Shown here piece by piece: positions 6,847 to 61,316 of a DNA stretch of 64,000 nucleotides. The position numbers and the translations under genes are program-made. Within the stretch, counting starts at the first letter, position 1. The number at the start of each line of letters is the position of its first letter. Under the pieces are notes generated by a model. That model made no database searches, had not been told where the DNA came from, and saw only the letters and a program-made list of their open reading frames with translations. Origin of the DNA: an uncultured Bacilli bacterium (GTDB taxonomy: Bacteria; Bacillota_I; Bacilli_A; RF39; UBA660); NCBI GenBank assembly GCA_934096985.1, contig CAKONC010000002.1, positions 121,421 through 185,420 on the forward strand. Direction: 5' to 3'.

Positions 6847-6849
6847 TTT

Positions 6850-7062
6850 TCTTCCCTCCAATAAAAAAAGGTGTGTACCAAAAGGGTGCATATAGCACGG
6901 TACCACCTTTATATTTTACTCAATTATCCTTAATGCGGACTAGACAGTTTATCCTATTTACTTAGATAAACAACTCCCAAGTGATTCAAATTACTTTCTA
7001 TTATTAACTTTCACCAATCGTTAACTCTCTAAAAATATTAAAGTAATTTCGTCTTGTTCATA
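6850..7062 (-). promoter_or_regulatory. T-box leader (Ile specifier) controlling ileS
   Basis: Minus-strand read shows AGAGAG, GATTGGTGAAAG, a candidate specifier in TTGAATCACTTGGGAG (AUC), and the T-box motif AAAGGTGGTACCGTGC. A terminator helix plus TTTTTTT follows just before the SD. Confidence 0.85.
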
Positions 7063-7112
7063 ATTTTTTAAAAATATATCTAAATTATATGACCTTTAAG
7101 TTACATTGTCAA

Positions 7113-7604: not shown

Positions 7605-7606
7605 AC

Positions 7607-9760
7607 TTACGCATCCTTATTATCTATATGAATTACTCTTTCTTTTATTTCCTGAGTTCTACCCTTATTCCAGAAATTTGCACCAATATATCCACATGTT
7701 CTTCTGGCAACATTTAATTTACTATGATCTCTATTACCACAATTTGGACAATACCACTCTAAATTATCATCAATTAATATTTCACCAGTATATCCACATT
7801 CTTGGCAATAATCAGATTTTGTATTAAGTTCAGCATACATGATATTATTATAAATATATTCAATAACTTCAAGAACTACATCAAGATTATTTTCAAGATT
7901 TGGAGTTTCTACATAACTTACAGCACCACCTGGAGAAAGCTTTTGAAATTCACTTTCAAGTTTTAATTTTGTAAATGCATCAATTTCTTCAAAAACTGGT
8001 ACATGGTAAGAATTAGTTATATAATCTCTATCAGTAATTCCTTTAATTTTACCAAATCTTTCTTTTAAACATTTAGCAAATTTATAAGTTGTTGCTTCAA
8101 TAGGAGTTCCATAAACTGAATAGTCAATATCCTCTTCTTCTTTCCATTTTTTGCATTTATCATTCATGTACTCCATAACTTTTAAGCCGAATTCTTTACC
8201 AATAGATTCATCAGTATGTGAATGTCCTGTCATATATTTAACACATTCATAAAGTCCAGCATATCCAAGAGAAATTGTTGAATATCCATGATGAAGTAAA
8301 TCATGAATACTTTCACCCTTTTTAAGTCTTGCAAGAGCTCCATGTTGCCATAGAATTGGTGCTACATCACTTGTAACTTTAGAAAGCCTTTTGTGTCTTA
8401 TTTGAAGTGCTTTATGACATAATTCTAATCTATCATCAAATATTTTCCAAAATAATTCCATATCTTTGTCTGATGAAAGAGCTACATCAGGAAGATTTAT
8501 TGTAACAACTCCTTGATTAAATCTACCATAATATTTTGGTTTACCTTTTTCATCAACATAAGTTGTTAAAAAGCTTCTGCAACCCATACATGGATAACAT
8601 TGACCATTACCATTTTTGTCAACTTTTAGTTCCTTCATGATTTTTTCAGAAATATAATCTGGAACCATTCTTTTAGCAGTACATTTAGCGGCAAGCTTTG
8701 TTAAATAATAATATTTACCATCTTTTTTAATATTATCTTCTTCTAAAACGTATAAAAGTTTTGGGAATGCTGGAGTTATATAAACTCCTTTTTCATTTTT
8801 CATACCTAAAATTCTTTGTTTTAAAAATTCCTCGATAATCATAGCAAGTTCTTCTTTATATTCACTTGTTTCTCCCAAATACATACAAACGCTCAAAAAA
8901 GGTGCTTGACCATTTGTAGTAGTCATTGAGTTAATTTGATATTGGAATGTTTGAACACCATCAGTTATTTCTTTTTGTAAGTCTTCTTTAGCATATTTTT
9001 CTGCATCTTCTTTTTTAAATTTTCTATTTTTATATTTTTCTAAATATCTTTCGTAACTACATCTAACAAAAGGTGCTAAATGAGTAAGAGTTATAGTACA
9101 TCCTCCATATTGAGATGATGATACTGCTGTAATGATTTGTGTAGCAATAGTCATAGCAGTTAAAAATCTATGCGGTTTTTCAATCATTACACCATTAATA
9201 TTAGTTCCATTTTGAAGCATATCTTCAAGGTTAATTAAATCACAATTGTGTAAAGCATTTTGTGCAAAATAATCTGCATCATGGAAATGAATAATGCCTT
9301 CATCATGTGCTTTAACTATATCTTCGGTAAGCAAAAATCTACGTGTTATATCAGTAGATGTTATACCTGCTAAATAATCTCTTTGTGTAGTTACAATACG
9401 TGCATTTTTATTAGAATTTTCTGTATTCCAATACTCACTTTCCCCATCAATTAGTTCTTTTATTGAAAGATCAGTTGTGTTACTTTTTCTAACTAACTCT
9501 CTTGTATATCTATAAGTAATATATTCTTTTGCAAGAGCATATTTTCCGAGAGCCATCAAACGATATTCGATAATATCTTGAATATCCTCAACAAGCATTC
9601 TTTTTTTCTTTAATCCTTCAATATATTTTACAATATTTCTTATTTGAATTTCACTTACTCTATCCTCTTCAGCAACTTCATTATTGGCTTTTTTAATAGC
9701 CATTTCAATTTTTTCTGGACAATAATCCACAATATGCCCATCACGTTTAACTATTTTCAT
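7607..9760 (-). CDS. nrdD: Anaerobic ribonucleoside-triphosphate reductase
   Basis: N-terminal ATP-cone (MKIVKRDGHIVDY), C-terminal Zn ribbon (CQECGY..CPNCG) and glycyl-radical tail (RTCGYIG). The ATG at 9760 follows AGGAGAGG, so the track start at 9835 is an over-extension. Confidence 0.95.
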   Translation of the reverse strand: MKIVKRDGHIVDYCPEKIEMAIKKANNEVAEEDRVSEIQIRNIVKYIEGLKKKRMLVEDIQDIIEYRLMALGKYALAKEYITYRYTRELVRKSNTTDLSIKELIDGESEYWNTENSNKNARIVTTQRDYLAGITSTDITRRFLLTEDIVKAHDEGIIHFHDADYFAQNALHNCDLINLEDMLQNGTNINGVMIEKPHRFLTAMTIATQIITAVSSSQYGGCTITLTHLAPFVRCSYERYLEKYKNRKFKKEDAEKYAKEDLQKEITDGVQTFQYQINSMTTTNGQAPFLSVCMYLGETSEYKEELAMIIEEFLKQRILGMKNEKGVYITPAFPKLLYVLEEDNIKKDGKYYYLTKLAAKCTAKRMVPDYISEKIMKELKVDKNGNGQCYPCMGCRSFLTTYVDEKGKPKYYGRFNQGVVTINLPDVALSSDKDMELFWKIFDDRLELCHKALQIRHKRLSKVTSDVAPILWQHGALARLKKGESIHDLLHHGYSTISLGYAGLYECVKYMTGHSHTDESIGKEFGLKVMEYMNDKCKKWKEEEDIDYSVYGTPIEATTYKFAKCLKERFGKIKGITDRDYITNSYHVPVFEEIDAFTKLKLESEFQKLSPGGAVSYVETPNLENNLDVVLEVIEYIYNNIMYAELNTKSDYCQECGYTGEILIDDNLEWYCPNCGNRDHSKLNVARRTCGYIGANFWNKGRTQEIKERVIHIDNKDA

Positions 9761-9816
9761 CTTCACTACCTCTCCTATTAAAACCACTTTAACTATAACA
9801 CAAAATAAATAAATGT

Positions 9817-9836
9817 AATGTTGCAATTGCAACATT
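9817..9836. promoter_or_regulatory. Perfect 20-bp palindrome, candidate Crp/Fnr-type operator in the nrdD/regulator divergent region
   Basis: AATGTTGCAATTGCAACATT, which reads as TGTTG-N6-CAACA. It lies between nrdD (start 9760, minus) and the Crp/Fnr gene (start 9875, plus). Confidence 0.4.
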
Positions 9837-9874
9837 TTAATAAAAATGATAAAATTTTACTAAGTGAGGTGTAA

Positions 9875-10516
9875 ATGATAAATTTATTTGACAATATACC
9901 TGTAAAAGAGCAAAAAAAATTGGAAACAATGCTCGAAGGAATAACGCTTACTTTTAAGAAGAATATGAATATATCAAAAAATTTTAAAGATAATATCATT
10001 GGAATAATTTCTGAAGGCAATGCAAAAATCGTTCATACTGACTATAATGGAAATACCCTAGTATTTGAAGATCTTTTCGAAGGAAGTATATTTGGAAGTA
10101 ACTTATCATTTCTTTATAATGAGGAATATGAAATTATTGCCAGCAGTGATGTTAAAATTACTATTTTCGATTATGACTTTATTATAAAGAATGAAAGTAG
10201 TTCAATATATTTTAATAAATTCTTAAAAAATTTACTTTTAATATTAAATGATAAAATTGTAGAAAAAAATGATAGACTACAAATAATAAGCAAAAAGACT
10301 ATTCGTGATCGCCTTCTTGAATATTTTAGTGTTCAAAGCAAAAAACACGGAAGCAGCATTATATATTTGCCTTTTTCATATTCTGAACTAGCCGATTATT
10401 TATCTGTCGACCGAAGTGCAATGCACCGTGAACTTAAAAATTTAAAGGAAGAAGAGTTTATCGAAGTAAAAGGAAAAAAAATCATTTTATTATATCGTCA
10501 CTCTTTTGCAATTTAA
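9875..10516 (+). CDS. Crp/Fnr-family transcriptional regulator
   Basis: 213 aa. An N-terminal cNMP-binding-like beta-roll is followed by a C-terminal HTH (SYSELADYLSVDRSAMHRELKNLKEE). Confidence 0.85.
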   Translation: MINLFDNIPVKEQKKLETMLEGITLTFKKNMNISKNFKDNIIGIISEGNAKIVHTDYNGNTLVFEDLFEGSIFGSNLSFLYNEEYEIIASSDVKITIFDYDFIIKNESSSIYFNKFLKNLLLILNDKIVEKNDRLQIISKKTIRDRLLEYFSVQSKKHGSSIIYLPFSYSELADYLSVDRSAMHRELKNLKEEEFIEVKGKKIILLYRHSFAI

Positions 10517-10557
10517 GATAAATTAAAGTATAATATAATTAAGAAAGGAAGATTTAT

Positions 10558-11913
10558 ATGTTTAATAATAAAAAAATACATATGATCGGTATTGGCGGAA
10601 TTTCTATGAGTGGAATTGCCGAAATATTATTATCTTTTAACACGCATATTACAGGCTATGACGTATTTTTAACAGACATTACTAAGCACTTAGAAGAAAA
10701 AGGCATCAAAGTATCAAATGTGCCAAACATTGAAAATGTAAAAAATGCTGATATCATTGTTTATACAGCAGCAATTCATGAAGACAATGAAGAACTAAAG
10801 TATGCTAGAGAAAATAATAAAATTGTTTATGAAAGAAGTACATTTTTAGGACTTTTAATGAAAGAATATGAAAATGTATTATGTATAAGTGGAACGCATG
10901 GAAAAAGCACTACTACCGGAATGGTAAGTACAATATTTTTAAAAGCAAACTTAAATCCTACAATTATGATCGGAGCCATGCTTCCAATAATTAATAGTAA
11001 TAATCATGTAGGTTCTAAAAAATATTTTATTGCGGAGAGCTGTGAATACGTAGATAGTTTTTTAGAGTTTTCCCCTACTAGTGAAATAATCCTTGATATC
11101 GATGATGATCATTTAGATTATTTTAAAAATATTGATGGTATTATTGCATCATTTAGAAAATTTGCAGATAAACTTAATAATAATGGAAATTTAATAGTGA
11201 ATATTGATGATGAAAACACAATTAAATGCATAAGCAATTTAAATAAAATAACATATGGTATATATAATAATGCAAATTATATGGCAAAAAATATCACTTA
11301 TGATGAGTTTGGTCACCCAAGATATGATTTATATATAGATGGAAAAAAGGAAACTGAAATTAGCCTATCAGTTTCTGGAATTCATAACATATATAACTCT
11401 CTTGCAGCAACTGCAATGTGTAGACTTTATGGCATCGATATAAGCGTTATTAAAGAAGGTCTTGCTACTTATACAGGAGTCGGAAGAAGATTTGAATTTT
11501 TAGGAAAAGTTAATGGTGCTTTGGTATATGATGATTATGCACATCATCCAAGTGAAATCAAAACAACATTAGATTCTGTTAAAAAAACAAATCACAATAA
11601 AAGTTATGCAATATTTCAATCACACACCTATTCAAGAACTATTGAACATTTAAATGAGTTTGCTGATGTTTTAAGTAATTTTGATAATGTTGTTATAGCT
11701 AAAATATATCCTGCTCGTGAAACTAATATTTGGAATGTTAAAGAAGAAGATTTAGTTTCATTAATTAAGGAAAAAAATTCAAATGTTATATATTTAGACA
11801 CTTTTGAAAAAATAGTTGATTATATTAAGGAAAACGTGAAAGAAAATGATTTAGTAGTTACTATTGGAGCTGGACCAATTAACGAAGTAGCTAAAGCATT
11901 AATTAAGGAGTAA
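10558..11913 (+). CDS. murC: UDP-N-acetylmuramate--L-alanine ligase
   Basis: HMIGIGGISMSGIAEIL Rossmann start, GTHGKSTTT P-loop, DDYAHHPSE motif. Confidence 0.95.
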   Translation: MFNNKKIHMIGIGGISMSGIAEILLSFNTHITGYDVFLTDITKHLEEKGIKVSNVPNIENVKNADIIVYTAAIHEDNEELKYARENNKIVYERSTFLGLLMKEYENVLCISGTHGKSTTTGMVSTIFLKANLNPTIMIGAMLPIINSNNHVGSKKYFIAESCEYVDSFLEFSPTSEIILDIDDDHLDYFKNIDGIIASFRKFADKLNNNGNLIVNIDDENTIKCISNLNKITYGIYNNANYMAKNITYDEFGHPRYDLYIDGKKETEISLSVSGIHNIYNSLAATAMCRLYGIDISVIKEGLATYTGVGRRFEFLGKVNGALVYDDYAHHPSEIKTTLDSVKKTNHNKSYAIFQSHTYSRTIEHLNEFADVLSNFDNVVIAKIYPARETNIWNVKEEDLVSLIKEKNSNVIYLDTFEKIVDYIKENVKENDLVVTIGAGPINEVAKALIKE

Positions 11914-11916
11914 AAA

Positions 11917-12450
11917 ATGAATCGTGATTTAGAAACGCCTAAAAGAAGAAATAATAGTGCTGTGGTATTAATAATATCTATAGTTATTACTATACTAATA
12001 ATATTTACCGTATTTTATTTTTTAAGAAGTGAAAAGAAAAAAGAATTTGATAAACTTTATAATGAAGATTACTACGTAAGAATAAATTTCGGTGAAACTA
12101 CTAAAGGTAATAATCTAAAAGATAAAGGTACGTTTTTAAAGGAAACTGATATTGATAAAAATTATTATCTATACATTACTAAATCAAATGTAGTCTATGC
12201 ATACTATACAGATTATTATTATATTTTTGATCCACTTCATGGCTATCATATAGATTTTCAGAAAACGCTTAATGATGATGTTGTTAAAGAAATATTAAAT
12301 CAAATCGATGAAAAGAAAGAAACTACATTGCTTAATAAAAACAAAGATGACTATTTAATACTCCGTTTTAATGATGAAAATTACTATATGAATAAAAAAT
12401 TACTTCAACAAATTCTTCAGCATTATGATGTAATTCTAGAAATAAAATAA
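11917..12450 (+). CDS. Hypothetical N-terminally anchored protein
   Basis: 177 aa with one TM segment (VVLIISIVITILIIFTVFYF). It starts 3 nt after the murC stop. Confidence 0.5.
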   Translation: MNRDLETPKRRNNSAVVLIISIVITILIIFTVFYFLRSEKKKEFDKLYNEDYYVRINFGETTKGNNLKDKGTFLKETDIDKNYYLYITKSNVVYAYYTDYYYIFDPLHGYHIDFQKTLNDDVVKEILNQIDEKKETTLLNKNKDDYLILRFNDENYYMNKKLLQQILQHYDVILEIK

Positions 12451-12471
12451 AAAAGGATATGATCCTTTTTT
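12450..12471. terminator. Bidirectional hairpin terminator
   Basis: AAAAGGAT-atg-ATCCTTTT followed by a T-run, between convergent genes. Confidence 0.6.
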
Positions 12472-12478
12472 ATTTTGG

Positions 12479-13462
12479 CTAATTTTCCTTACTAATATTT
12501 TCTAAATAATTATCTAAAATTTCAATTATTTTATTTTGGTTTCTTTCCTTACAAATCATATTTTTTACTTCACCATTATTTGGCATGCCTTTTAAATAAT
12601 ATAAGAAATGACTTCTTATTTCAATTGTTGCTTCACTTTCTCCTTTTTCTAAAACTAAATTATTTAAATGTGTTTTCATCATTTGAATTCTTTCTTCAAA
12701 AGATATTTTTTTAGGTAATTTTCCATGTTCTAGGTAATCATTGCATTCTTTAATAAGCCAAGGATTTCCTAAAAGACCTCTTCCTATCATAACAGCATCA
12801 CAGCCTGTTTCATCAAGCATTTTCTTAGCATCAAAACAGCTTACAACATCTCCATTACCTATTACTGGAATATTTACACTTTCTTTAACTTTTTTTATAA
12901 GAGACCAATCACTATGTCCCTCATAACCTTGATTTCTTGTTCTTGCATGAAGTGTTATTGCACTTGCTCCAGCTTTTTCACATATTTTAGCTACTTCAAC
13001 ACAATTTATACTGTTTTCATCCCAGCCACTACGAATTTTAACAGTTACTGGACAGGGAACGCTTTTACTAACCGCATTAACAATTTCATATATTTTTTCG
13101 GGACTTTTCAAAAGTGCACTTCCCGCTTGAGAACGCATTGCTATTTTAGGTACAGGGCAGCCCATATTAATATCAATTATATCTGGATGCATATAATCAT
13201 ATACAATTTTTGCAGCCTTGCAAAAACTATCTACATCACTTCCAAAAATTTGCTGTGATATAGGTCTTTCTTTTTCGTCCATTTTTAAAAGTTTTTTAGT
13301 TTTTTCATTACCAAAAACTAAAGCTTTATCTGAAACCATTTCTCCTACTACTAAAGATGCACCAAAATCTTTACAAATCATTCGAAAAGTTTTATTACTA
13401 ACACCAGCCATCGGAGCTACAATTATTTTTCCATTAATTTCTACATTACCTATTTTAAACAT
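12479..13462 (-). CDS. dusB: tRNA-dihydrouridine synthase (DusB-like)
   Basis: 327 aa. APMAGVSN, DINMGCP and HARTR motifs typical of Dus flavoenzymes. Confidence 0.9.
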   Translation of the reverse strand: MFKIGNVEINGKIIVAPMAGVSNKTFRMICKDFGASLVVGEMVSDKALVFGNEKTKKLLKMDEKERPISQQIFGSDVDSFCKAAKIVYDYMHPDIIDINMGCPVPKIAMRSQAGSALLKSPEKIYEIVNAVSKSVPCPVTVKIRSGWDENSINCVEVAKICEKAGASAITLHARTRNQGYEGHSDWSLIKKVKESVNIPVIGNGDVVSCFDAKKMLDETGCDAVMIGRGLLGNPWLIKECNDYLEHGKLPKKISFEERIQMMKTHLNNLVLEKGESEATIEIRSHFLYYLKGMPNNGEVKNMICKERNQNKIIEILDNYLENISKEN

Positions 13463-13527
13463 AAAAAAATCTTTCCCTTAACAGAAAAGATTATAACATC
13501 ATAAATTAGTGCTGTAAATATAATAAT

Positions 13528-14091
13528 TTATTTCAAAATTATTTTGGCAGTATCACCTTGGTTTATTAAAAAGGCACATGCATCATCTTTATCAATATGT
13601 AGTTCTAAAACGGCATTATCTTTTATCTTAACAAAGCTTTCAATAATTCCAAATTTTTCATTTCCAAGCTTAACTAAAACTTTTTCTCCATGAGTAAGAC
13701 CTAGGTTGCTTGCTTCCTCTTTAGAAATATGAATATGTCTTTGAGCAATAATACAAGCTTTTACTTCAATACTATTTTTAGGAGTTTCAATTGTAATTTT
13801 TTCTGCTCCTACCAAATCTCCACTTTCTCTTACCGGAGGATTAATACCAAACTTAATTGCATCAGATTTAGCAATTTCTACTTGGGTATAATCACGACAT
13901 GGACCCAAAACTTTTACATTATCAATTTTAAATTTATCAGTTTTCAAAGTAACAACTTTATCAGTAACAAACTCCTCAGGTTGTTTTAAATTTTTCAAAA
14001 TATTATACGGTTCATCAAATAAAATGTCATAAACCTCTTTACTTAAATGAACATGTCTATTACTAATACCTATATCTATCTCTTTTTCCAT
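13528..14091 (-). CDS. pduL: Phosphate propanoyltransferase / phosphotransacylase PduL
   Basis: 187 aa with duplicated NRHVHLS / QRHIHIS motifs, characteristic of the two PduL repeats. Confidence 0.8.
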   Translation of the reverse strand: MEKEIDIGISNRHVHLSKEVYDILFDEPYNILKNLKQPEEFVTDKVVTLKTDKFKIDNVKVLGPCRDYTQVEIAKSDAIKFGINPPVRESGDLVGAEKITIETPKNSIEVKACIIAQRHIHISKEEASNLGLTHGEKVLVKLGNEKFGIIESFVKIKDNAVLELHIDKDDACAFLINQGDTAKIILK

Positions 14092-15068
14092 TTTTTCTCC
14101 TTTAATACCATAAATGGTTTACATAATACAAAACTTATAAAATAACTACTAAAAAATATTACGATTAAACAAATTATAATAGAGTATGCAGAACAATATT
14201 TTAGTAAATCATAATGCTCAATTATATAACAAAATATTAAATTACTAAACAAATATGTACCAAACAAATAAGGTGTAAATGTTTTGAATTTTATATCACT
14301 CTTATCATTAAAATTAATTATATAATAAATAAGTATAGTCAAAAGCATCATCAGTAAATTATTATTTTCTATTAAAGTTCTATCAAAATTTTGCATACTC
14401 TTTGATAAAGCATATGTAATTATTACTATATAAGTAAATAATATTAAACTAATAACAACGCTTAGTATCAAATTTTTAGTTTTTTTACTATCAACATTTT
14501 TTATTAAATAACCCATTATAAAATAGCTTATCATCATAGAGTTATTTATTAAAGGAATATCTAAAGTAAAAGTAAATTCTTTAAATAAACCTATTAAGTT
14601 TAATGTACTCCATAAAAGTACCAAAACAATAAATAATTTACTTTCTTTTTTAGTCATATTAGTAACTAATCTTTTTATAAAAGGATAAATTATATAAAGA
14701 CCTAAAATATTAAATAATATACTCAAATGACTATTAAACGGATTAAAGAGATATTTATAAAAATGATTTAAATTATGATTAAAAAAAAGCATATTTATAA
14801 AAGTGAAAATTACAAATATAAAAATTATAAATAAAATATTTTTAATATAATTTTTTAAACTAAACTCAGTATTAAGTAAGTAATAGCCCATTGTCATTAT
14901 AAAAAGTGGTAATCCTATTTTTCCTAAGATATAATATATTGCTGAAAAAACGAAATATACATTTCCGTAATTATTAAATGTGTAAGTATAATTCTTTGCT
15001 ATAAATGAAAGCAGCATCAAAATAATACTTATAAAAAATGTTTTATTAATACTTAAATCTTTTTTCAT
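14076..15068 (-). CDS. Polytopic membrane protein, possibly acyltransferase-3 family
   Basis: 330 aa with about 9-10 TM segments. GLPLFIMTMGYYLL resembles the acyltransferase_3 core. The family call is weak. Confidence 0.4.
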   Translation of the reverse strand: MKKDLSINKTFFISIILMLLSFIAKNYTYTFNNYGNVYFVFSAIYYILGKIGLPLFIMTMGYYLLNTEFSLKNYIKNILFIIFIFVIFTFINMLFFNHNLNHFYKYLFNPFNSHLSILFNILGLYIIYPFIKRLVTNMTKKESKLFIVLVLLWSTLNLIGLFKEFTFTLDIPLINNSMMISYFIMGYLIKNVDSKKTKNLILSVVISLILFTYIVIITYALSKSMQNFDRTLIENNNLLMMLLTILIYYIINFNDKSDIKFKTFTPYLFGTYLFSNLIFCYIIEHYDLLKYCSAYSIIICLIVIFFSSYFISFVLCKPFMVLKEKKWKKR

Positions 15069-15069
15069 G

Positions 15070-15165
15070 TTATTTAATTATGTATGTAATTACTCTTGCA
15101 ATTGATATACCGAACAATATAATAGAAAAACAAAATACTAAACTTCTATAAATTTCTTTTTTCAT
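15070..15165 (-). CDS. Candidate 31-aa membrane peptide (below the ORF-track cutoff)
   Basis: MKKEIYRSLVFCFSIILFGISIARVITYIIK. AAAGGAA lies 5 nt upstream of the ATG, which falls just after the TAG stop of the upstream gene. Support comes from sequence context only. Confidence 0.3.
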   Translation of the reverse strand: MKKEIYRSLVFCFSIILFGISIARVITYIIK

Positions 15166-15177
15166 ACATGTTCCTTT

Positions 15178-15792
15178 CTATAAAATAATTTTTTTAATAT
15201 TTACTAAATTGCTATCTTCAAAATTTAATTTATATATACTTATGTCATTTATATCACCAGAATAAACAACATCATCATTATATTCTAAAATAAGTTCATC
15301 TTCAAGGTTATAACCAACTTTTGTATGATTTATTAAATAACTTAATATCGTCCTTAAATGTGTAAAAACAACTACTTTATTTACTTTATTTAAATATACA
15401 ATATGATTTATACTATCTGTAAATCTTTTGCAAGTTTCATTTAACGATTCTCCTTTTTCAAGTTTTATATTAAAATCATGTTCTTGCATAAAATAAATAT
15501 TTTTTAAATCTTTATTTTTAATATCTCCCACTATAGGAGCATCTAATTTATCATCTAAATAAACATCTTTTTTTAGTCTTTTTGCTAAATATTGAGCAAA
15601 TATTCTTGCACTAGCACTTGTTGATGAATATATAGCACCAGTGTTATTAAACATGGTTAGTAAAGAAAGTCTTTGTGCATAATCTTTATTTTTACTAAAC
15701 AAAGGTATCTTTAGTTTTTTTTTATCTATTTTATTTTCATTATAAAGTAAGTTATTTTCTATTAAATTATTACTTACCAAAATAACTTCCAT
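15178..15792 (-). CDS. Histidine-phosphatase-superfamily-like protein lacking the N-terminal RHG motif
   Basis: IYSSTSASARIFAQ, GESLNE and VVVFTHLRTILSYL match the family layout, but the N-terminal catalytic RHGE/Q position reads VSNN. Confidence 0.45.
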   Translation of the reverse strand: MEVILVSNNLIENNLLYNENKIDKKKLKIPLFSKNKDYAQRLSLLTMFNNTGAIYSSTSASARIFAQYLAKRLKKDVYLDDKLDAPIVGDIKNKDLKNIYFMQEHDFNIKLEKGESLNETCKRFTDSINHIVYLNKVNKVVVFTHLRTILSYLINHTKVGYNLEDELILEYNDDVVYSGDINDISIYKLNFEDSNLVNIKKIIL

Positions 15793-54407: not shown

Positions 54408-56129
54408 ATGAAATTTAATGATGTCTTAAATATGTATTTAGAAACTCTTAATTGTTCTTCGAAAAAACTTTCAAAGGAGTCTGGATTATCAGAACCTGTT
54501 ATATCAAGATATCGAAGTGGTGAAAGAACTCCTGCAAAGGATAGTAAACAATTTAAAAAACTTATTAATGCCCTATTTAATATTGCTAAAGAAAGTGGTA
54601 AAAATAACTATTCACTTAATAAAATAACAAGTGATTTTGAGGTCGCTTTTGAAAATGATAGTTTTGACTATGAAACATTTAGTAATAATTTAAATACGTT
54701 AATAACATCTCTAAAAATAAATATAAATGAAATGGCAAAATTCATTGTATTTGATCCATCTCACATATCAAGAATTAGATATGGAAAATCTAAACCCTCA
54801 AATCCAATAGAGTTTACAAATAAAATATGTTCATATATCATATTTAAATATAAAAGTCCTGATGATTTAAATAACCTAATTGAGATAATTGGATGTGATA
54901 AAGACATAGCAAATGAAAAAATATATGATGTTTTATTTACATTTCTAACAAGTGAAAAAAAGATACTTAAAAATCAAATATCAGATTTTCTTCATAATCT
55001 TGATTCATTTAATTTAGATGATTATATAAAAGTAATAAAATTTGATAAATTAAAAGTTCCAAATATTCCTTTTTATAAAGGTAAAACAAAACATTATTAT
55101 GGTATCGAAGAAATGAAGGAAGGAGAATTAAACTTTTTTAAATCCACTGTACTATCAAAATCTAAAGAAGATATTTTTATGTGTAGTGATATGCCAATGG
55201 AAGATATGGCAAAAGATACTGATTTTGGTAAGAAATGGATGTTTGCTATAGCAATGTGTTTAAAAAAAGGTCATCATTTAAACATTATTCATAATTTAGA
55301 TAGACCATTTAATGAAATGATGCTTGGGCTTGAAAGTTGGATCCCTATTTATATGACCGGGCAAATATCACCATATTATTTAAATAGTGTAAAAAATAAT
55401 GTTTATAATCATTTAAACTATGTATCTGGGGTAACTGCTTTAACTGGAGAATGCATAAAAGGCTATCATAACAAAGGAATGTACTATTTAACGACAAATA
55501 AAAACGAAGTTAAATATTATAAAGAAAAATGTGATTTACTATTAAAAAAAGCTAAACCACTTATGGAAATATATAGAGAAAATAATCAAAATGAGTATGA
55601 ACTCTTCCTAAAAAATAATGAAAAAGTTATTGGCAATAGAAAAAGGATTTTATCTTCCCTACCATTATTTACGATATCAGATGAACTTTTAAAAAAGATT
55701 TTAAAAAGAAATAAAGTGAGCATTTTAGACACCGAAGAAATAGTTAAATATAAAAATAATGAATTAAAATATATGAATAATATATTAAAAAATAATAATG
55801 TTAATGATTATATTTATGTTACAAAAGAAAATGAATTTTCTACTGATATAACTCTTTCATTAGAAAATATGTTTTATGATAAAAAAATTAATTACACTTA
55901 TGATGAATATTTAGAGCATTTAAAACTTACTAAAAAATATGAAAAAGAAAATACTAATTACCATCTTAAATATGAAGAGGTGCAAACATTTAAAAATATA
56001 ACAACCACAATTATAAATGGTAATTATGTGATAATTTCAAAAAGTTCTAATCCTGTAATTCATTTTGTAATAAAACATCCTAAATTAGTCGAAGCCATTG
56101 ATAATTTTAATCCTCTTGTTAAAGAATAA
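54408..56129 (+). CDS. Large putative transcriptional regulator with two N-terminal HTH-like modules
   Basis: 573 aa. Contains SKKLSKESGLSEPVISRYRSGERTP and INEMAKFIVFDPSHISRIRYGKSKP, followed by about 400 aa I cannot assign. Confidence 0.6.
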   Translation: MKFNDVLNMYLETLNCSSKKLSKESGLSEPVISRYRSGERTPAKDSKQFKKLINALFNIAKESGKNNYSLNKITSDFEVAFENDSFDYETFSNNLNTLITSLKININEMAKFIVFDPSHISRIRYGKSKPSNPIEFTNKICSYIIFKYKSPDDLNNLIEIIGCDKDIANEKIYDVLFTFLTSEKKILKNQISDFLHNLDSFNLDDYIKVIKFDKLKVPNIPFYKGKTKHYYGIEEMKEGELNFFKSTVLSKSKEDIFMCSDMPMEDMAKDTDFGKKWMFAIAMCLKKGHHLNIIHNLDRPFNEMMLGLESWIPIYMTGQISPYYLNSVKNNVYNHLNYVSGVTALTGECIKGYHNKGMYYLTTNKNEVKYYKEKCDLLLKKAKPLMEIYRENNQNEYELFLKNNEKVIGNRKRILSSLPLFTISDELLKKILKRNKVSILDTEEIVKYKNNELKYMNNILKNNNVNDYIYVTKENEFSTDITLSLENMFYDKKINYTYDEYLEHLKLTKKYEKENTNYHLKYEEVQTFKNITTTIINGNYVIISKSSNPVIHFVIKHPKLVEAIDNFNPLVKE

Positions 56130-57164: not shown

Positions 57165-58382
57165 TTAATTATTATATTTTGGCTGTGCACACTCTTTTAA
57201 ATTAATGTTAAGTGACTTTAAGAAATCTTTTAAATATTTATTATCATCATCTGTAGTAAACTTATAACCCGTTCCCGAAGTAATAGTATAATTTGAAAAA
57301 TTTCCCGTAATATATGTATGTAAATTTGCATCTGTACTATGTCTAATAATTTCAATTAAATCAAAATCATATTTACCTTTGATTGAACCCGTATACTCAA
57401 GTACATCAAGACAAGTTTCCCACTTTTTACAAGACTTATATTTAGTATATAAAATATATTTATTGTTTTTATATACATCAAGTTTTACAGGAACGCATGA
57501 AGTATTTGGAGATTCAACCGAAAATAGTAAATCTCCATATGCTAAATCATCTAAAGTTATTTTATTTACATCTACATTTAGATAGTTATAATAGATATTT
57601 TTTTTATTTTCTACTTCATTATATAATTTATCAATGTTTTTATCTTTATCAAAATTTAAAACTTGATGAGCAATTATTTTAGGAAACATTCTTCTTATCG
57701 AAGAGGTATAATCATCACCATCTTTTGAGTAAATAATTTCCTGTAAAATATTATTTTTAAATACTGCTTTTATTGGCATCGAACTTCCCGAAGAAGAAGC
57801 TAAAGCACCTCCATATTCTTCATTTTCTATATAAAAACTTCCATTATAAATCCACATATATGCATATTTATATTGACCATCTTTTTCAATACCAAAACCA
57901 TAATAGCTATAAAATACATTAAAGTCCTCATATTTTACATCAGGATTTTCCTTAAATTCTTTCTTTTTAAGAAAGTCAATTACTTCATCATATAAATAAT
58001 TTGAATCATTTACTAAATTCACCTTCATTTTAAAATTATAAATTATTAAAAAACTAATTACTATTAAAAAGATTATTGAACTTATAGTAAATATCTTTTT
58101 ATTTTTTTTCTTCATTTTTTCTTTATCTTTTATCGAAGTTATAATTGCTTTTTCTTTAGCTTCATCACTATTATCTTTTTCTCCATTAATTAACTCTTCG
58201 ATACTTATATTTAGTTCATGACATATTTTTTTAAATAGTGAAACATCAGGAAAACTAATCCCTCTTTCCCATTTACTTACTGCATTTATACTTACGCCCA
58301 TTTTTTCTGAAAATTCACTTTGTGTCATATTTTTTTCTTTTCTCAAACTTGCAATGAATTTACCAATTTTTTTCTGGTCCAT
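57165..58382 (-). CDS. Membrane-anchored XRE-family HTH protein with a large extracytoplasmic domain
   Basis: KIGKFIASLRKEKNMTQSEFSEKMGVSINAVSKWERG, then a TM segment (IFTISSIIFLIVISFLIIY), then a ~290-aa C-terminal domain. Confidence 0.75.
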   Translation of the reverse strand: MDQKKIGKFIASLRKEKNMTQSEFSEKMGVSINAVSKWERGISFPDVSLFKKICHELNISIEELINGEKDNSDEAKEKAIITSIKDKEKMKKKNKKIFTISSIIFLIVISFLIIYNFKMKVNLVNDSNYLYDEVIDFLKKKEFKENPDVKYEDFNVFYSYYGFGIEKDGQYKYAYMWIYNGSFYIENEEYGGALASSSGSSMPIKAVFKNNILQEIIYSKDGDDYTSSIRRMFPKIIAHQVLNFDKDKNIDKLYNEVENKKNIYYNYLNVDVNKITLDDLAYGDLLFSVESPNTSCVPVKLDVYKNNKYILYTKYKSCKKWETCLDVLEYTGSIKGKYDFDLIEIIRHSTDANLHTYITGNFSNYTITSGTGYKFTTDDDNKYLKDFLKSLNINLKECAQPKYNN

Positions 58383-58455: not shown

Positions 58456-58700
58456 ATTTTAATATTTAATAATAGCAATATATAAAAAAATACCCAATCG
58501 GGTATTAATTCCAAACTAAATTATATTTTAAATTTCTTTTAAATAAATCCCAAAGATTGGCTTTTAATATAGTTTCATTAATTGTAATATCAACTTCATT
58601 TATTTGTTTACCATTACTATCACTTTGCCAATGATATCCCCTTTTTAATGGAACAATTGCTTTGTCAATATTTAGTTTATTTTTAAAAGTATTAAAAATT
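58456..58700 (-). pseudogene. Degenerate duplicate of the 3' end plus terminator of the dac gene at 60077..61222
   Basis: 58456..~58625 aligns almost base-for-base with 60028..~60195, including the terminator ATACCCAATCGGGTAT. Further in, the copy carries deletions and has no start codon. Confidence 0.7.
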
Positions 58701-58712
58701 TATTAAAATAAG

Positions 58713-59738
58713 TTAGTTAAATATATCAAAATATTGACTAACATCATAGCTATCTAAATTAGTTGCAATAATAGAGCATTTTAAGACTTTCTCTTCACGT
58801 TTTTTAATTATTATTTTATATTTAATACCTTTATCTATTTTCGGAGCATAATAGCAAGCATAATCACCAGAAATATATCCTATATGATTATGATTTTTAT
58901 CTAATACTTTTATAGCATTTGTATCAAACTTATTATTTAATTCTCTAACAATATATAATTCTTCGTTATCCTTTAATTTATCAACATATTGTTTTCTTTC
59001 TGCTAAAGTTATTCCGACTACAGTAATATAACAATTTAAACTGTTTGCTGTATTTTCCCAATTAGGAACCAAAGTACTATACTTTTTTTCTAACAAATAA
59101 TAAATATCTCTATCAATAACAACTATATTTTTATCAGGATATAATTCTTTAAAACGTTTCATATTTTGCAAACTTCTGTAATCTAAATTACCCTTAATCT
59201 CTATTAATGTTCCATCATTTAAAATCAAATCCGGCACATACATAAAAGACATATATTTATAATCACAATCATTTTTATCCAAAACAAATCCATCATTTTC
59301 ATATTTATAATCTATTTGCAAATAATTAAATAAACGTATTATATTTGCTTCCCATGAAGACATAACCTCTTCCTCAATATCATCACGTTTGCCTTTTTTA
59401 AATTCTATTTTATGCTCATTAATATTGGTACTACTTTTAGTACTACTTTTATTTATTATTTCTTGAAAATTACATTTTGGAAATCTTGCACAAACAATAT
59501 ATTCACCGAATCTAGCTTTTTTAATTAATAATTTTTTACCACATTTTGGACAATCCATTTTTTCATAAGTCACAGGAATATTTTCACTAGTAAATTTACA
59601 ATTTAAACATTGATATAATTTAGTACCTCTGCTGGTTCTGATAACTTTCATATTTTCATTACACCTAGGACAAAATACATCTTTTAAAATCATATTTTCA
59701 TCATCAACATGATGAACCTGAGTATTAACATATCTCAT
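58713..59738 (-). CDS. Zn-ribbon / PD-(D/E)xK nuclease-like / HIRAN domain protein
   Basis: Two CxxC...CxxC ribbons, the second topoisomerase-type (CPKCGKKLLIKKARFGEYIVCARFPKCNF). Central SSWE...YVPDLILNDGTLIEIKG. C-terminal ITVVGI...LYIVRELNNKFDTNAIKVLD..IGYISGD is HIRAN-like. Confidence 0.7.
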   Translation of the reverse strand: MRYVNTQVHHVDDENMILKDVFCPRCNENMKVIRTSRGTKLYQCLNCKFTSENIPVTYEKMDCPKCGKKLLIKKARFGEYIVCARFPKCNFQEIINKSSTKSSTNINEHKIEFKKGKRDDIEEEVMSSWEANIIRLFNYLQIDYKYENDGFVLDKNDCDYKYMSFMYVPDLILNDGTLIEIKGNLDYRSLQNMKRFKELYPDKNIVVIDRDIYYLLEKKYSTLVPNWENTANSLNCYITVVGITLAERKQYVDKLKDNEELYIVRELNNKFDTNAIKVLDKNHNHIGYISGDYACYYAPKIDKGIKYKIIIKKREEKVLKCSIIATNLDSYDVSQYFDIFN

Positions 59739-60027
59739 AAAACACCTCCATTATTATTTATTATACATTAGTTTTTGGTGTTTTTTATCATTTCATTTAA
59801 ATTTTTATATAAAATCGGAATTCTGTAATCAAAAACTCCACCTCTAACCGGACTTTTTTTATTTAATACAGATTTTAATTAGAATACGACATTTTCTTTT
59901 CATAATTATTTAAATGTATAAAAATATTTTTTAAATTGATTATAACTTCTTTAATATCTTCTTATAAATTAAATTTTCTTAGTTTGTTTTTTTCAAATTT
60001 GTCAATTTTTCTCTAATTCATATTAAC

Positions 60028-60420
60028 ATTTTAATATTTAAGAGTAGCAATACATAAAAAAATACCCAATCGGGTATTAATTCCAAACTAAATTATATTT
60101 TAAATTTCTTTTAAATAAGTCCCAAAGATTGGCTTTTAATATAGTTTCATTAATTGTAATATCTACTTCATTTATTTGTTTGCCATTACTATCAAGTATT
60201 TTAACCTTACCAATGATATCTCCTTTTTTTACTGGAGCAATTACTTTATCAATATTTAGTTTAAATTGATAATCACTTGGTTTATCACTTACATTTAAAA
60301 GTTCAATTGCATCATTTACTAATACAACATCAACACTACTTTTTTTACCATTTTGAACTTTTATTTTTCCTAATGAAACATTTTTATCCTTTATTAAGTT
60401 TACTTTAAAAGTATTAAAGC
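60028..60420. repeat. Direct-repeat partner (intact dac 3' end plus terminator) of 58456..58700
   Basis: See 58456..58700. Confidence 0.7.
60056..60077 (-). terminator. Rho-independent terminator of the dac gene (duplicated at 58484..58505)
   Basis: On the minus strand: ATACCC-gatt-GGGTAT followed by TTTTTTT. Confidence 0.65.
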
Positions 60421-61222
60421 CATAATTTAAAAGTTTTACTGTATCACTACTTCTTTTTTCTATTGATTCTTCACCCATTACAACACTTATAAGTCTTAAA
60501 TTATTTTTTTTAGCAGTAGCAGTTAAACAATAACCAGCATTTTTTGTATATCCTGTTTTAAGTCCATCTACTCCATCATAAAATCGTACTAATTTATTAG
60601 TATTGACAAGCCAAATTTGTGAACCATCTGGTTTGGTTAAATATTCTTCATACACTTTTGTAAAATCAAGAATTTGCTCATGTTTTAAAAGTTCTCTTGC
60701 CATAATTGACATGTCATATGCGCTTGAATAATGTCCTTCTTCATCAAGACCATGAACATTTGAAAAATGAGTATTTGCTAGATTTAAAATTTCAGCTTTT
60801 TTATTCATTGCCTCAATAAAATGCTCTTTTGAACCATAGGTTTTTTCCGCTAAAGCAACGACTGCATCATTTGCCGATGCCATAGCTACACCTTTAATTA
60901 AATCTTTAACTAAATAACTTTCACCAGGATTTAAAAATATTTGACTTCCACCCATTGAGGATGCCTCAGTACTAATCTCTATTTTATCATCAAGTCTTAA
61001 CGAGCCATCATCTATTTTTTCCATTATCAAAATTAAACTCATTATTTTAGTCATCGATGCTGGAGCTAATCTTTCATTTTCATTTTTGTTATATAACACT
61101 TTTCCTGTATTTTGATCTATTAGAATTGCACTTTTAGCACCTAATTCCATTTCTACAGCGTTTACATTAGTAAAATAAAATAACAAAAATAAAGTTAATA
61201 CAAATATAAATATCTTTTTCAT
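60077..61222 (-). CDS. S11-family D-alanyl-D-alanine carboxypeptidase (DacA/DacF type)
   Basis: Signal peptide, SMTK, SAND and KTGYT motifs, PBP5 C-terminal domain. The ATG at 61222 follows GAGGTG. Confidence 0.9.
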   Translation of the reverse strand: MKKIFIFVLTLFLLFYFTNVNAVEMELGAKSAILIDQNTGKVLYNKNENERLAPASMTKIMSLILIMEKIDDGSLRLDDKIEISTEASSMGGSQIFLNPGESYLVKDLIKGVAMASANDAVVALAEKTYGSKEHFIEAMNKKAEILNLANTHFSNVHGLDEEGHYSSAYDMSIMARELLKHEQILDFTKVYEEYLTKPDGSQIWLVNTNKLVRFYDGVDGLKTGYTKNAGYCLTATAKKNNLRLISVVMGEESIEKRSSDTVKLLNYGFNTFKVNLIKDKNVSLGKIKVQNGKKSSVDVVLVNDAIELLNVSDKPSDYQFKLNIDKVIAPVKKGDIIGKVKILDSNGKQINEVDITINETILKANLWDLFKRNLKYNLVWN

Positions 61223-61316
61223 AAACACCTCATACTAATTTTTATTATTATCTTTTTGAAAAAATTACTATTTTATTTTGAATTTATTAAAGCATTTGAT
61301 ATAATTTTTATGGAAG

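What the first reader, a model, noticed from the sequence alone, without database searches (positions are those of the whole stretch)
58713..59738. Orphan Zn-ribbon / PD-(D/E)xK-like / HIRAN fusion protein
The 341-aa product combines three modules.

1. Two four-Cys ribbons. The second matches the type IA topoisomerase C4 finger: CPKCGKKLLIKKARFGEYIVCARFPKCNF.
2. A central segment with the E...PD...(E)xK signature of restriction-endonuclease-fold nucleases: SSWEANIIRL ... YVPDLILNDGTLIEIKG.
3. A C-terminal HIRAN-like domain: ITVVGI..., LYIVRELNNKFDTNAIKVLD, IGYISGD. In HLTF/Rad5-type proteins this domain binds 3' DNA ends.

A nuclease core flanked by DNA-end and ssDNA-sensing modules, encoded as a single gene on a tiny insert (see the repeat finding at 58456..60420), looks like a stand-alone DNA-damage or foreign-DNA-processing protein, possibly anti-phage. 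It does not look like a housekeeping repair enzyme. It has no partner genes: no methylase, helicase or ATPase is nearby.
Basis: partly seen in the sequence, partly recalled or inferred. Interest (0 to 1): 0.65.

Follow-up and report, generated by a model that had tools for sequence, protein, structure and literature searches.

The report
Stranded mobile-element branched-DNA nuclease gene
This gene encodes an uncharacterised enzyme that joins a phage T7-type branched-DNA cutter to a module that grips free 3' DNA ends, and here it is probably the lone leftover of a small mobile element that normally inserts into the neighbouring cell-wall gene.

Summary
ORF 58713..59738(-) is real and has three modules:
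- two topoisomerase-I-type C4 zinc ribbons;
- a nuclease that profile searches place in the T7 endonuclease I family (family profile vs PDB 1M0D/2PFJ, E about 1e-13), with E130, D170, E180 and K182 conserved in 59-60 of 60 relatives;
- a HIRAN domain, supported by Pfam and by fold match to HLTF, with its 3'-end pocket residues conserved.

The "stand-alone, no partners" reading holds only for this window. The closest relatives are components of ~9-kb integrative elements with large serine recombinases that split the dac (Peptidase_S11) gene. There the gene is transcribed divergently from a cI-like HTH_3 repressor.

In the window only the gene survives. It sits in a 1,572-bp insert beside an intact dac, flanked by ~233-nt repeats of dac's 3' end. 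It is intact in two sister lineages and frameshifted in a third.

The Endo I-HIRAN core is widespread (about 100 clusters at 50% identity) in phage-like and integrative elements, among antirepressors, restriction systems and Ltp. No known defence system matches, and I found no published description.

Likely mechanism (inferred): a nuclease tethered to forks or D-loops that carry a free 3' end. An anti-phage role is plausible but untested.

The parts
58713..59738 (-). ORF of 341 aa: ZnR-ZnR-Endo I-HIRAN protein
   Evidence: ORF list. 16 homologous clusters at 42-99% identity. AF2 model with mean pLDDT 80.
59589..59681 (-). Zinc ribbon 1 (residues ~20-50; C23, C26, C44, C47). It is a diverged Topo-I-type C4 ribbon.
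   Evidence: The four Cys are invariant. Weak Pfam Zn_ribbon_TFIIB and Zn_ribbon_recom hits. In more distant homologues the same position carries the canonical CPxCG...C.NYPxC motif.
59448..59561 (-). Zinc ribbon 2 (residues ~60-97; C63, C66, C83, C89), topoisomerase I C4 type
   Evidence: Pfam PF01396, E 2.7e-13, above the gathering cut-off. Aligns to the E. coli Topo I C-terminal ribbons.
59394..59447 (-). Low-complexity, disordered linker (residues 98-115)
   Evidence: pLDDT below 50 for residues 98-115. Length is variable among homologues.
59055..59393 (-). T7 endonuclease I-family nuclease domain (residues ~116-228). Catalytic candidates are E130, D170, E180 and K182.
   Evidence: The family profile hits PDB 3CAE/1M0D/1FZR/2PFJ at E 3e-14 to 3e-11, aligning SSWEAN, PD and ExK to T7 FRSGLE(E20), PD55 and E65-x-K67. 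Relatives exceed the PF05367 cut-off. Conserved in 59-60 of 60 sequences. PHROGs Holliday-junction-resolvase and endonuclease families match.
58764..59039 (-). HIRAN domain (residues ~234-325). Pocket residues are N269, F271 and D272.
   Evidence: Pfam PF08797, E 2.8e-13. Foldseek to HLTF HIRAN and lp_0118 gives probability 1.0 and target TM 0.63-0.78. N269 is conserved in 60/60, Y/F271 in 59/60 and D272 in 59/60.
59739..60027 (-). 289-nt upstream spacer unique to the insert. It holds the RBS GGAGGTG (59743-59749) and the best promoter-like site (59939-59968).
   Evidence: No Rfam hit and no unusual fold. No remnant of the element's HTH gene.
58456..58688 (-). Repeat copy A: a frameshifted pseudo-copy of the last ~60 dac codons plus a terminator hairpin (58489-58506)
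   Evidence: It accumulates indels in sister lineage L018.
60028..60272 (-). Repeat copy B: the functional 3' end of dac plus its terminator (60061-60078)
   Evidence: Only 3-4 differences among the sister lineages.
60077..61228 (-). Intact dac gene (Peptidase_S11 + PBP5_C). It is the target gene of the related elements, and its attB core AATACTAATAAA|TTAGTACG at ~60585-60604 is unoccupied.
   Evidence: Pfam. Split points in L007 and L183 and the shared attR in L022.

Best explanation
**What it is.** The ORF encodes a structure-specific DNA endonuclease of mobile-element origin. Its catalytic core is a T7-endonuclease-I-family (PD-(D/E)xK) domain with a complete active site (E130, D170, E180, K182). 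It is flanked N-terminally by two Topo-I-type C4 zinc ribbons, which bind ssDNA in topoisomerase I. It is flanked C-terminally by a HIRAN domain, which in HLTF captures a free 3'-OH DNA end.

**Inferred mechanism.** The enzyme probably acts as a dimer, as T7 Endo I does. The HIRAN domain and zinc ribbons would dock it at ss/ds junctions that expose a 3' end: stalled or reversed forks, D-loops, and rolling-circle or recombination-dependent replication intermediates. It would then cut the branch.

**Origin.** The gene is not a native housekeeping gene. Its closest relatives are regular components of ~9-kb integrative elements with large serine recombinases that insert into the dac gene. In those elements it is the first gene transcribed divergently from a cI-like HTH_3 repressor, so it would be switched on when the element is induced. 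In the window the recombinases, the repressor and the att ends are gone. Only the gene remains, in a 1,572-bp insert behind a restored dac.

**Biological role (least certain).** I favour a conflict function: the element cuts replication intermediates of competing phage, or of the host. Processing of the element's own branched DNA is nearly as likely.

**Sub-confidences.** Domain identities about 0.95; relic of a dac-targeting element about 0.75; 3'-end-guided branched-DNA cleavage about 0.5; anti-phage or inter-element conflict role about 0.35.
For: **Domains**
- Pfam places the zinc ribbon and HIRAN above their cut-offs.
- The family profile matches T7 Endo I structures at E 3e-14 to 3e-11 with catalytic motifs in register.
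- Relatives exceed the PF05367 cut-off.
- HIRAN fold matches have probability 1.0.
- The catalytic and pocket residues are conserved in 59-60 of 60 sequences.

**Element origin**
- P0008 (L007) lies in an ~8.8-kb element with two serine recombinases that splits dac at NTNK|LVRFY.
- P0002, the closest relative outside the window's lineage, has the same split point and the same left end.
- In L022 (encoding a near-identical copy of P0005) the gene lies 118 nt from the same attR.
- P0006 shares L007's downstream synteny.
- P0004, P0013 and P0014 lie in other serine-recombinase elements.
- A divergent HTH_3 gene sits upstream in L001, L007, L011, L183 and L184.

**Relic status**
- The insert is bounded by duplicated dac 3' ends, and copy A is frameshifted.
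- The same structure is present in two sister species-level MAGs.
- The ORF is intact in L018 (7 synonymous and 5 non-synonymous differences) and frameshifted, with S127F, in L019.

**Conflict-type neighbourhoods**
- A SIR2 gene 11 nt downstream of P0010.
- A type ISP R-M enzyme and a PIF1 helicase beside P0012.
- DUF4238 near P0013 and P0014.
- In the wider family: antirepressors, Ltp, type I R-M and GmrSD. The gene is typically a lone plus-strand gene among minus-strand genes.
Against:
- The window protein alone scores below the Pfam cut-off for Phage_endo_I.
- The fold search recovers T7 Endo I only weakly: E 0.2-0.5 for the window model and 0.004-0.02 for the long form. This may be because T7 Endo I is a domain-swapped dimer, but that explanation is an inference.
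- The HLTF stacking residue Y72 has no clearly conserved counterpart.
- No neighbour belongs to a known defence system, and PADLOC hits come through HIRAN only.
- The route from an element inserted at attB to a gene-only insert ~510 bp downstream of an intact attB is reconstructed, not observed. No empty-site genome was found.
- The frameshift in L019 shows that the gene is dispensable in at least one lineage.
Confidence: 0.55

Rival explanations
1. Self-maintenance enzyme. As T7 gene 3 does for T7, the nuclease debranches or resolves the element's own replication and recombination intermediates after induction. HIRAN and the zinc ribbons merely improve substrate capture. On this reading it has no role in conflict.
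For: - Homology to T7 Endo I and to PHROGs 'Holliday junction resolvase' and 'endonuclease' families.
- Phage proteins annotated Endonuclease I or HJ resolvase are the nearest viral structures.
- The gene is a conserved component next to the repressor rather than variable cargo in at least seven elements.
- The L011 element carries a primase/helicase-type ATPase, so such elements probably replicate.
Against: - In the wider family the gene sits among antirepressor, lysogeny and defence-type genes, not in replication or packaging modules. It is often a lone, oppositely oriented gene.
- P0010 and P0012 lie beside SIR2 and type ISP R-M genes with no recombinase.
- Serine recombinases do not generate Holliday junctions (established knowledge).
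- The ORF is kept intact in a locus with no element left to maintain.
Confidence: 0.3
2. Recombination accessory. The protein is the recombination directionality factor (RDF), or another cofactor, of the element's large serine recombinase.
For: - In the P0013 and P0014 elements the gene lies immediately upstream of, and co-oriented with, the 569-aa recombinase, under a divergent HTH_3 gene. That is the classic position of an xis/RDF gene.
- Serine recombinases occur near the wider family in 11 of 46 loci.
- Known RDFs are structurally very diverse (PMC12286644).
Against: - A fully conserved nuclease active site and 3'-end pocket are unnecessary for an RDF.
- P0010, P0012 and P0009 have no recombinase nearby.
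- In L007 the gene is separated from the recombinases by several genes.
- The RDF paper mentions no nuclease- or HIRAN-type RDFs.
Confidence: 0.07
3. Domesticated host repair factor. After the element decayed, the lineage kept the gene as a fork- or D-loop-processing enzyme for its own chromosome.
For: - The ORF is intact with its own RBS.
- Its divergence from L018 and L019 (0.3-2.3%) is similar to that of dac, and omega is about 0.15 versus L018.
- The locus is ordinary chromosome: dac, YlxM, FtsY.
Against: - There are only 12 differences from which to estimate selection.
- The gene carries a frameshift plus a change at an invariant residue in L019.
- The family is very rare and patchy, with 16 clusters among 5.8 billion proteins and 5 loci among 185,579 species genomes.
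- The gene lies in mobile contexts everywhere else.
Confidence: 0.12
4. Functionless remnant in this genome. The ORF is merely not yet degraded and does nothing here, whatever its role was in the element.
For: - The repressor, recombinases and att ends are lost.
- Neighbouring repeat copy A is decaying.
- The gene is frameshifted in L019.
Against: - A 341-codon ORF stays open in a genome of ~24% GC, where stop codons arise easily.
- It is intact in two lineages that differ by about 3.6% in the surrounding DNA, and synonymous changes outnumber non-synonymous ones per site.
Confidence: 0.15

Closest known systems
Bacteriophage T7 endonuclease I (gene 3 product; Pfam PF05367; PDB 1FZR, 1M0D, 2PFJ)
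   Same: - Homologous nuclease core. The family profile hits it at E 3e-14 to 3e-11, with FRS-x-x-E / Y-x-PDF / E-x-KG motifs in register.
- The four catalytic residues are conserved: T7 E20, D55, E65 and K67 (residue numbers from my own knowledge of the T7 sequence and literature) correspond to E130, D170, E180 and K182.
   Different: - T7 Endo I is a single-domain protein of 149 aa. This protein adds two N-terminal zinc ribbons and a C-terminal HIRAN domain.
- It is carried by integrative elements of low-GC Bacilli, not by a lytic phage.
- Dimerisation by domain swap and junction selectivity are untested.
- The window protein alone is below the Pfam cut-off.
HIRAN domain of human HLTF / yeast Rad5 (PF08797; PDB 4S0N, 4XZF, 5BNH) and bacterial lp_0118 (3K2Y)
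   Same: - Same fold (Foldseek probability 1.0, rmsd ~2 A over 94-98 residues).
- The N-N-x-Y/F-D pocket motif is conserved, corresponding to HLTF N90, N91, Y93 and D94.
   Different: - In HLTF and Rad5 the domain guides a SWI2/SNF2 translocase and RING ligase for fork reversal. Here it is fused to a nuclease.
- Prokaryotic HIRAN domains are described as uncharacterised (PMC11090510).
- The Y72 equivalent is not clearly conserved.
HipA-HIRAN (HipI) pairs / PADLOC candidate PDC-M03
   Same: It shares a HIRAN domain, which is the only PADLOC match (E 3e-11, residues 249-318). These pairs are found in genomic islands of Gram-positive bacteria (PMC11706625).
   Different: - In that system the HIRAN protein partners a HipA-like kinase and is a predicted antitoxin.
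- There is no kinase here, no PDC-M03A partner, and the architecture differs (nuclease fusion).
Integrative elements with large serine recombinases that interrupt genes (skin, SPbeta, gin; SCC-type elements with paired recombinases)
   Same: - The related elements (L007, L183, L020, L013) are ~9 kb and carry one or two large serine recombinases.
- They insert at a defined site inside a coding gene (dac) and have inverted-repeat attP arms.
- Host relatives have spoIIA and spoVA genes.
   Different: - I found no report of a dac target in the held literature.
- There is no evidence of developmentally regulated excision.
- The window contains none of the recombination machinery.

Membership tests
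T7 endonuclease I family (Pfam PF05367 Phage_endo_I) | Significant profile match to the family | tested here: met
   The window protein alone scores 18.4 bits against a cut-off of 29.1. A profile of 60 homologues hits T7 Endo I chains at E 3e-14 to 3e-11. Homologues P0020, P0046, P0057, P0023, P0031, P0021 and P0099 score 31-47 bits, above the cut-off.
T7 endonuclease I family (Pfam PF05367 Phage_endo_I) | Catalytic E...PD...E-x-K tetrad (T7 E20, D55, E65, K67) | tested here: met
   E130 in 60/60, D170 in 60/60, E180 in 59/60 and K182 in 60/60 sequences. They align to the T7 motifs.
T7 endonuclease I family (Pfam PF05367 Phage_endo_I) | Domain-swapped homodimer with composite active sites | not testable with these tools
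   Only monomer prediction was available. The monomer models superpose poorly on T7 Endo I chains (target TM ~0.33).
T7 endonuclease I family (Pfam PF05367 Phage_endo_I) | Structure-selective cleavage of four-way junctions and branched DNA | not testable with these tools
   Needs biochemistry.
HIRAN domain (Pfam PF08797) | Profile match above the curated cut-off, and the same fold | tested here: met
   49.9 bits against a cut-off of 24.7. Foldseek probability 1.0 to HLTF HIRAN and lp_0118.
HIRAN domain (Pfam PF08797) | 3'-OH-binding pocket residues (HLTF N91, Y93, D94) | tested here: met
   N269 in 60/60, Y/F271 in 59/60 and D272 in 59/60 sequences. The counterpart of HLTF Y72 is unclear.
HIRAN domain (Pfam PF08797) | Binding of free 3' DNA ends | not testable with these tools
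   Needs binding assays.
Topoisomerase I C4 zinc ribbon (Pfam PF01396) | Profile match above the cut-off with four conserved Cys per ribbon | tested here: met
   49.9 bits against a cut-off of 32, in two stretches. Eight Cys are invariant in 15 homologues.
Known anti-phage defence systems (PADLOC-DB v2) | Match to a system's full protein set, with its partners present | tested here: not met
   The only match is PDC-M03B, through HIRAN residues ~225-320. There is no HipA-like partner. The tight neighbours of homologues match no system.
Active integrative element with a large serine recombinase (applied to the window's insert) | A recombinase gene and attL/attR ends flanking the insert | tested here: not met
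   The insert holds one ORF only. Its flanks are dac 3'-end duplications, not att ends. No HTH or element-end remnants are present. attB inside dac is unoccupied.

The most novel reading that the evidence does not exclude
Endo I-HIRAN nucleases, with swappable N-terminal modules (zinc ribbons here, a ~240-aa beta-alpha-beta repeat module in the long form), would be a new class of single-protein effectors carried by mobile elements. They would sense replication by capturing nascent 3' ends and then destroy the fork or D-loop. That would give temperate phages and integrative elements a sequence-independent way to abort replication of competitors. It would also give prokaryotic HIRAN domains their first defined function.
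Probability: 0.3. Interest if true: 0.75.

Novelty: new variant of a known kind. Interest (0 to 1): 0.5.

Why it matters
Prokaryotic HIRAN domains have no established function. In eukaryotes the domain guides fork-remodelling motors to nascent 3' ends. Here it is fused directly to a junction-resolving nuclease of the T7 Endo I family. The fusion is conserved in about 100 sequence clusters and lies almost always on mobile DNA. This points to a simple, testable way of recognising and cutting replication or recombination intermediates without sequence specificity. That is of interest for phage-host and element-element conflict, for the biology of serine-recombinase elements, and possibly as a structure-specific nuclease reagent. 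The locus also records how a gene-interrupting element decays until a single gene is left beside its restored target gene.

Tried and rejected
- **Exact-sequence look-up of the window's dac protein**, to find an empty site: nothing on record.
- **Second large protein search with the 60-sequence profile:** only one new protein (P0071) and no informative names.
- **Cultured phages and plasmids (tblastn):** the full architecture is absent. Only the nuclease core matches a few phage genes, some annotated endodeoxyribonuclease I or endonuclease (haloviruses, Bacillus phage G gp28).
- **Remnants of the element in the window's spacers:** no HTH gene and no element ends. The one weak tblastn hit falls in the unrelated XRE-type gene at 57165..58382.
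- **Recent horizontal spread of the insert among sister lineages:** rejected. Divergence is mosaic everywhere, and the ORF is no more conserved than dac.
- **RNA element in the spacers:** no credible Rfam hit (one sub-threshold snoRNA match inside dac is chance), and the fold z-score is -0.26.
- **PADLOC and PHROGs on the tight neighbours** (408-aa and 487-aa proteins of the SIR2 cluster, the conserved 312-aa neighbour, the type ISP cluster): no known system.
- **L186's upstream 332-aa ORF as another dac:** rejected.
- **RDF hypothesis:** no literature support found.
- **Literature searches** for an Endo I-HIRAN or REase-HIRAN bacterial fusion found no description. Iyer et al. 2006 is not held.
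Full report
**1. Observation**

The ORF at 58713..59738 (minus strand) exists as described and encodes 341 aa. A strong ribosome-binding site (GGAGGTG, 59743-59749) lies 4 nt upstream of the ATG. GC content is about 0.20-0.25 in and around the ORF, so there is no compositional anomaly. The protein has 16 homologous clusters at 42-99% identity among about 5.8 billion proteins, so it is a real but rare gene.

**2. Domains**

Pfam scores the second zinc ribbon as Zn_ribbon_Top1 (residues 62-97, E 2.7e-13, above the gathering cut-off). It scores the C-terminus as HIRAN (236-322, E 2.8e-13, above the cut-off). The central segment gives only a sub-threshold Phage_endo_I hit (E 1.7e-3). PHROGs match the same segment to 'Holliday junction resolvase' and 'endonuclease' families (E about 1e-8).

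I tested the nuclease assignment in three further ways.
- Homologues with the same core exceed the Pfam cut-off for Phage_endo_I, at 31-47 bits against 29.1.
- A profile built from 60 family members hits the T7 endonuclease I crystal-structure sequences (3CAE, 1M0D, 1FZR, 2PFJ) at E 3e-14 to 3e-11. The alignment places the family's FRSSWEAN, Y-x-PDF and E-V-K-G motifs on T7's FRSGLED, YTPDF and ETKG.
- The corresponding residues E130, D170, E180 and K182 are present in 60, 60, 59 and 60 of 60 sequences.

From my own knowledge of T7 Endo I, these four positions are its catalytic residues E20, D55, E65 and K67.

The AlphaFold model (mean pLDDT 80; a disordered linker at 98-115) matches HLTF HIRAN structures and the bacterial HIRAN protein lp_0118 with probability 1.0. 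The HIRAN motif N-N-x-(Y/F)-D aligns to HLTF N90, N91, Y93 and D94, the 3'-end pocket (numbering from my own knowledge). It is conserved in 59-60 of 60 sequences. All eight zinc-ribbon cysteines are invariant in the 15 close homologues. In the more distant of these, the first ribbon also has the canonical Topo I C4 motif. The nuclease can be named more precisely as a member of the T7 endonuclease I family.

**3. The insert**

Direct repeats at 58456-58688 and 60028-60272 bracket the gene. They are spaced 1,572 nt apart. They are 96% identical over the first 167 nt and about 80% identical beyond that.
- Copy B is the true 3' end (last ~65 codons) and intrinsic terminator of the upstream gene 60077..61228. 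That gene is a D-Ala-D-Ala carboxypeptidase (Peptidase_S11 + PBP5_C).
- Copy A is a frameshifted pseudo-copy of the last ~60 codons, with an identical terminator hairpin.

Two GTDB species-representative MAGs of uncultured Bacilli carry the same arrangement. These are L018 (about 96% DNA identity to the window) and L019 (about 92%), both from Hadza gut metagenomes. The insertion therefore predates their divergence.

In L018 the ORF is intact, with 7 synonymous and 5 non-synonymous differences (omega about 0.15, from few sites), while copy A has picked up several indels. In L019 a 1-nt deletion at window position 59154 truncates the ORF after about 195 residues, and the invariant S127 is changed to F. 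Divergence along the region is mosaic. The ORF is about as conserved as dac, so I found no sign of recent spread between these lineages.

**4. Where the gene comes from**

The genomic contexts of the homologues explain the link to dac.
- **P0008 (L007-L010, L020).** It lies in an ~8.8-kb element with two large serine recombinases that splits a dac gene inside the peptide NTNK|LVRFY.
- **P0002.** This is the closest relative outside the window's lineage (75% identity). It lies beside a dac N-terminal fragment that ends at the same point, and it shares L007's element left end.
- **P0006.** It shares L007's downstream gene order, including both recombinases.
- **L022 (a near-identical copy of P0005).** The gene lies only 118 nt from the same right end (GCTTTATTCACATAC) and the dac C-terminal fragment. 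No recombinases lie between the gene and attR, so this looks like an intermediate stage of decay.

The two element ends form imperfect inverted repeats, as expected of a serine-integrase attP. The corresponding attB (AATACTAATAAA|TTAGTACG, about 60585-60604) is intact and unoccupied in the window's dac.

Other homologues (P0004, P0013, P0014) lie in different serine-recombinase elements. One of these carries a primase/helicase-type ATPase. In L001, L007, L011, L183 and L184 a small HTH_3 (cI/XRE-like) gene lies divergently just upstream of the gene.

None of this machinery survives in the window, and the 289-nt and 24-nt spacers show no remnants of it. I therefore read the window's insert as a relic of a dac-targeting element, in which dac has been restored upstream and the old dac C-terminal fragment has been mostly deleted. 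That sequence of events is an inference, and no empty-site genome was found.

**5. The wider family**

An exhaustive profile search of 1.84 billion representatives found 205 proteins at E < 1e-30. Of the 150 listed, roughly 100 carry the Endo I + HIRAN core (profile positions ~107-340). Most of these are 420-480 aa, with a different N-terminal region that has no Pfam match. Only two listed representatives have the zinc-ribbon form.

A confident model of a long-form member (pLDDT 90.8) shows an N-terminal module of repeated beta-alpha-beta units. It has only weak, ACT/ferredoxin-like structural matches.

Scans found 320 related stretches in metagenome contigs and 177 in IMG/VR viral contigs. 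Many of those viral contigs are 60-112 kb.

Recurrent neighbours are:
- ORF6N, ANT, Bro-N and Rha antirepressors;
- DUF3560 and DUF6291 proteins;
- the Ltp superinfection-exclusion lipoprotein;
- tyrosine integrases;
- large serine recombinases (11 of 46 loci);
- type I R-M subunits and GmrSD.

The gene is typically a lone plus-strand gene among minus-strand genes.

Among the zinc-ribbon homologues, P0010 is packed between a 408-aa unknown gene and a SIR2 gene, and P0012 lies beside a type ISP R-M enzyme and a PIF1 helicase. These are accessory or conflict-type neighbourhoods. However, none of the tight neighbours matches a known defence system. The only PADLOC hit of the protein itself is PDC-M03B, through HIRAN alone. 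That model belongs to HipA-HIRAN pairs, which have a different architecture (PMC11706625). The full architecture is absent from cultured phages and plasmids.

**6. Mechanism**

Shown here:
- an intact T7 Endo I-type active site;
- a HIRAN fold with a conserved pocket;
- two Topo I-type zinc ribbons;
- carriage on mobile elements under a cI-like repressor.

Inferred from established knowledge:
- T7 Endo I is a dimeric, structure-selective nuclease that cuts four-way junctions and other branched DNA.
- HLTF HIRAN captures the free 3'-OH of a nascent strand.
- The Topo I C-terminal ribbons bind ssDNA.

Together these suggest an enzyme docked at ss/ds junctions with an exposed 3' end (forks, reversed forks, D-loops, rolling-circle or recombination-dependent replication intermediates) that cleaves the branch.

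I favour a conflict role, meaning interference with the replication of competing phage or of the host when the element is induced (probability about 0.35). Processing of the element's own DNA is nearly as likely (about 0.3). Lesser alternatives are a domesticated repair function, an inert remnant in this genome, and a recombinase cofactor.

**7. Novelty and literature**

Full-text searches found no description of a bacterial Endo I-HIRAN fusion. One 2024 paper states that prokaryotic HIRAN domains are uncharacterised (PMC11090510). From memory, Iyer, Babu and Aravind (2006) noted HIRAN fused to restriction-fold nucleases in eukaryotes and stand-alone HIRAN in bacteria and prophages. That paper is not held here.

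The only name any source gives is generic: 'topoisomerase DNA-binding C4 zinc finger domain-containing protein'.

I rate this a new variant of a known kind. The domains are known. Their combination is uncharacterised but widespread, and the particular copy in this window is a stranded relic.

**8. Verdict**

Interest is moderate (0.5). The protein family deserves experimental attention. This locus is mainly informative as evidence of where the gene came from.

Noticed in passing
L007 ~6656-15436; L183 1027-3897; L020; L013; L022 3188-4861; window 60585-60604: A family of ~9-kb elements with one or two large serine recombinases inserts inside the dac (Peptidase_S11) gene at AATACTAATAAA|TTAGTACG. 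The elements share conserved left and right ends that form imperfect inverted repeats. The window's dac keeps an intact, unoccupied attB. I found no report of a dac-targeting element in the held literature.
   Followed up: partly
L008 7200-8468: One variant of the dac-targeting element carries a 422-aa reverse transcriptase (RVT_1) between its two recombinases. L007 has a 231-aa ORF at that position.
   Followed up: no
L003 3985-12644 (also L004-L006): Homologue P0010 sits in a tight same-strand cluster. The cluster holds a 902-aa CoaE/AAA_18/glycosyltransferase/HipA_C fusion, a 408-aa unknown, the nuclease, SIR2, a 487-aa unknown and DUF2130. It matches no PADLOC system and could be an undescribed conflict locus.
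   Followed up: partly
L014 3663-10027 (also L015-L017): Homologue P0012 lies next to a 1,596-aa type ISP restriction-modification enzyme and a PIF1-family helicase. They are on recurrent contigs of ~10-15 kb seen in many samples.
   Followed up: no
P0023 and other long-form relatives (model m83faa01d5089, residues 1-245): The common long form of the Endo I-HIRAN family has a confidently predicted N-terminal module of repeated beta-alpha-beta units. It has only weak ACT/ferredoxin-like matches and no Pfam family. Its function is unknown.
   Followed up: partly
window 55206-56105: The 3' part of the 573-aa HTH_3-containing ORF (54408..56129) is hypervariable between sister lineages. It differs by 13-21% from L019, against 2-8% in most neighbouring bins.
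   Followed up: no
L186 2124-6413; L001 14962-15993: Some homologues lie next to spoIIAA/sigF-like and spoVAC/spoVAD/spoVAEB genes, so the host lineages appear to be spore-formers. This raises the question of whether the dac-interrupting elements behave like sporulation 'intervening elements'.
   Followed up: no
L001 1-3620; L184 3287-4336: The elements carrying P0013 and P0014 also encode DUF4238 and DUF6602 proteins. From memory, DUF4238 is the signature domain of a described anti-phage gene, Rst_DUF4238; I did not test this.
   Followed up: no
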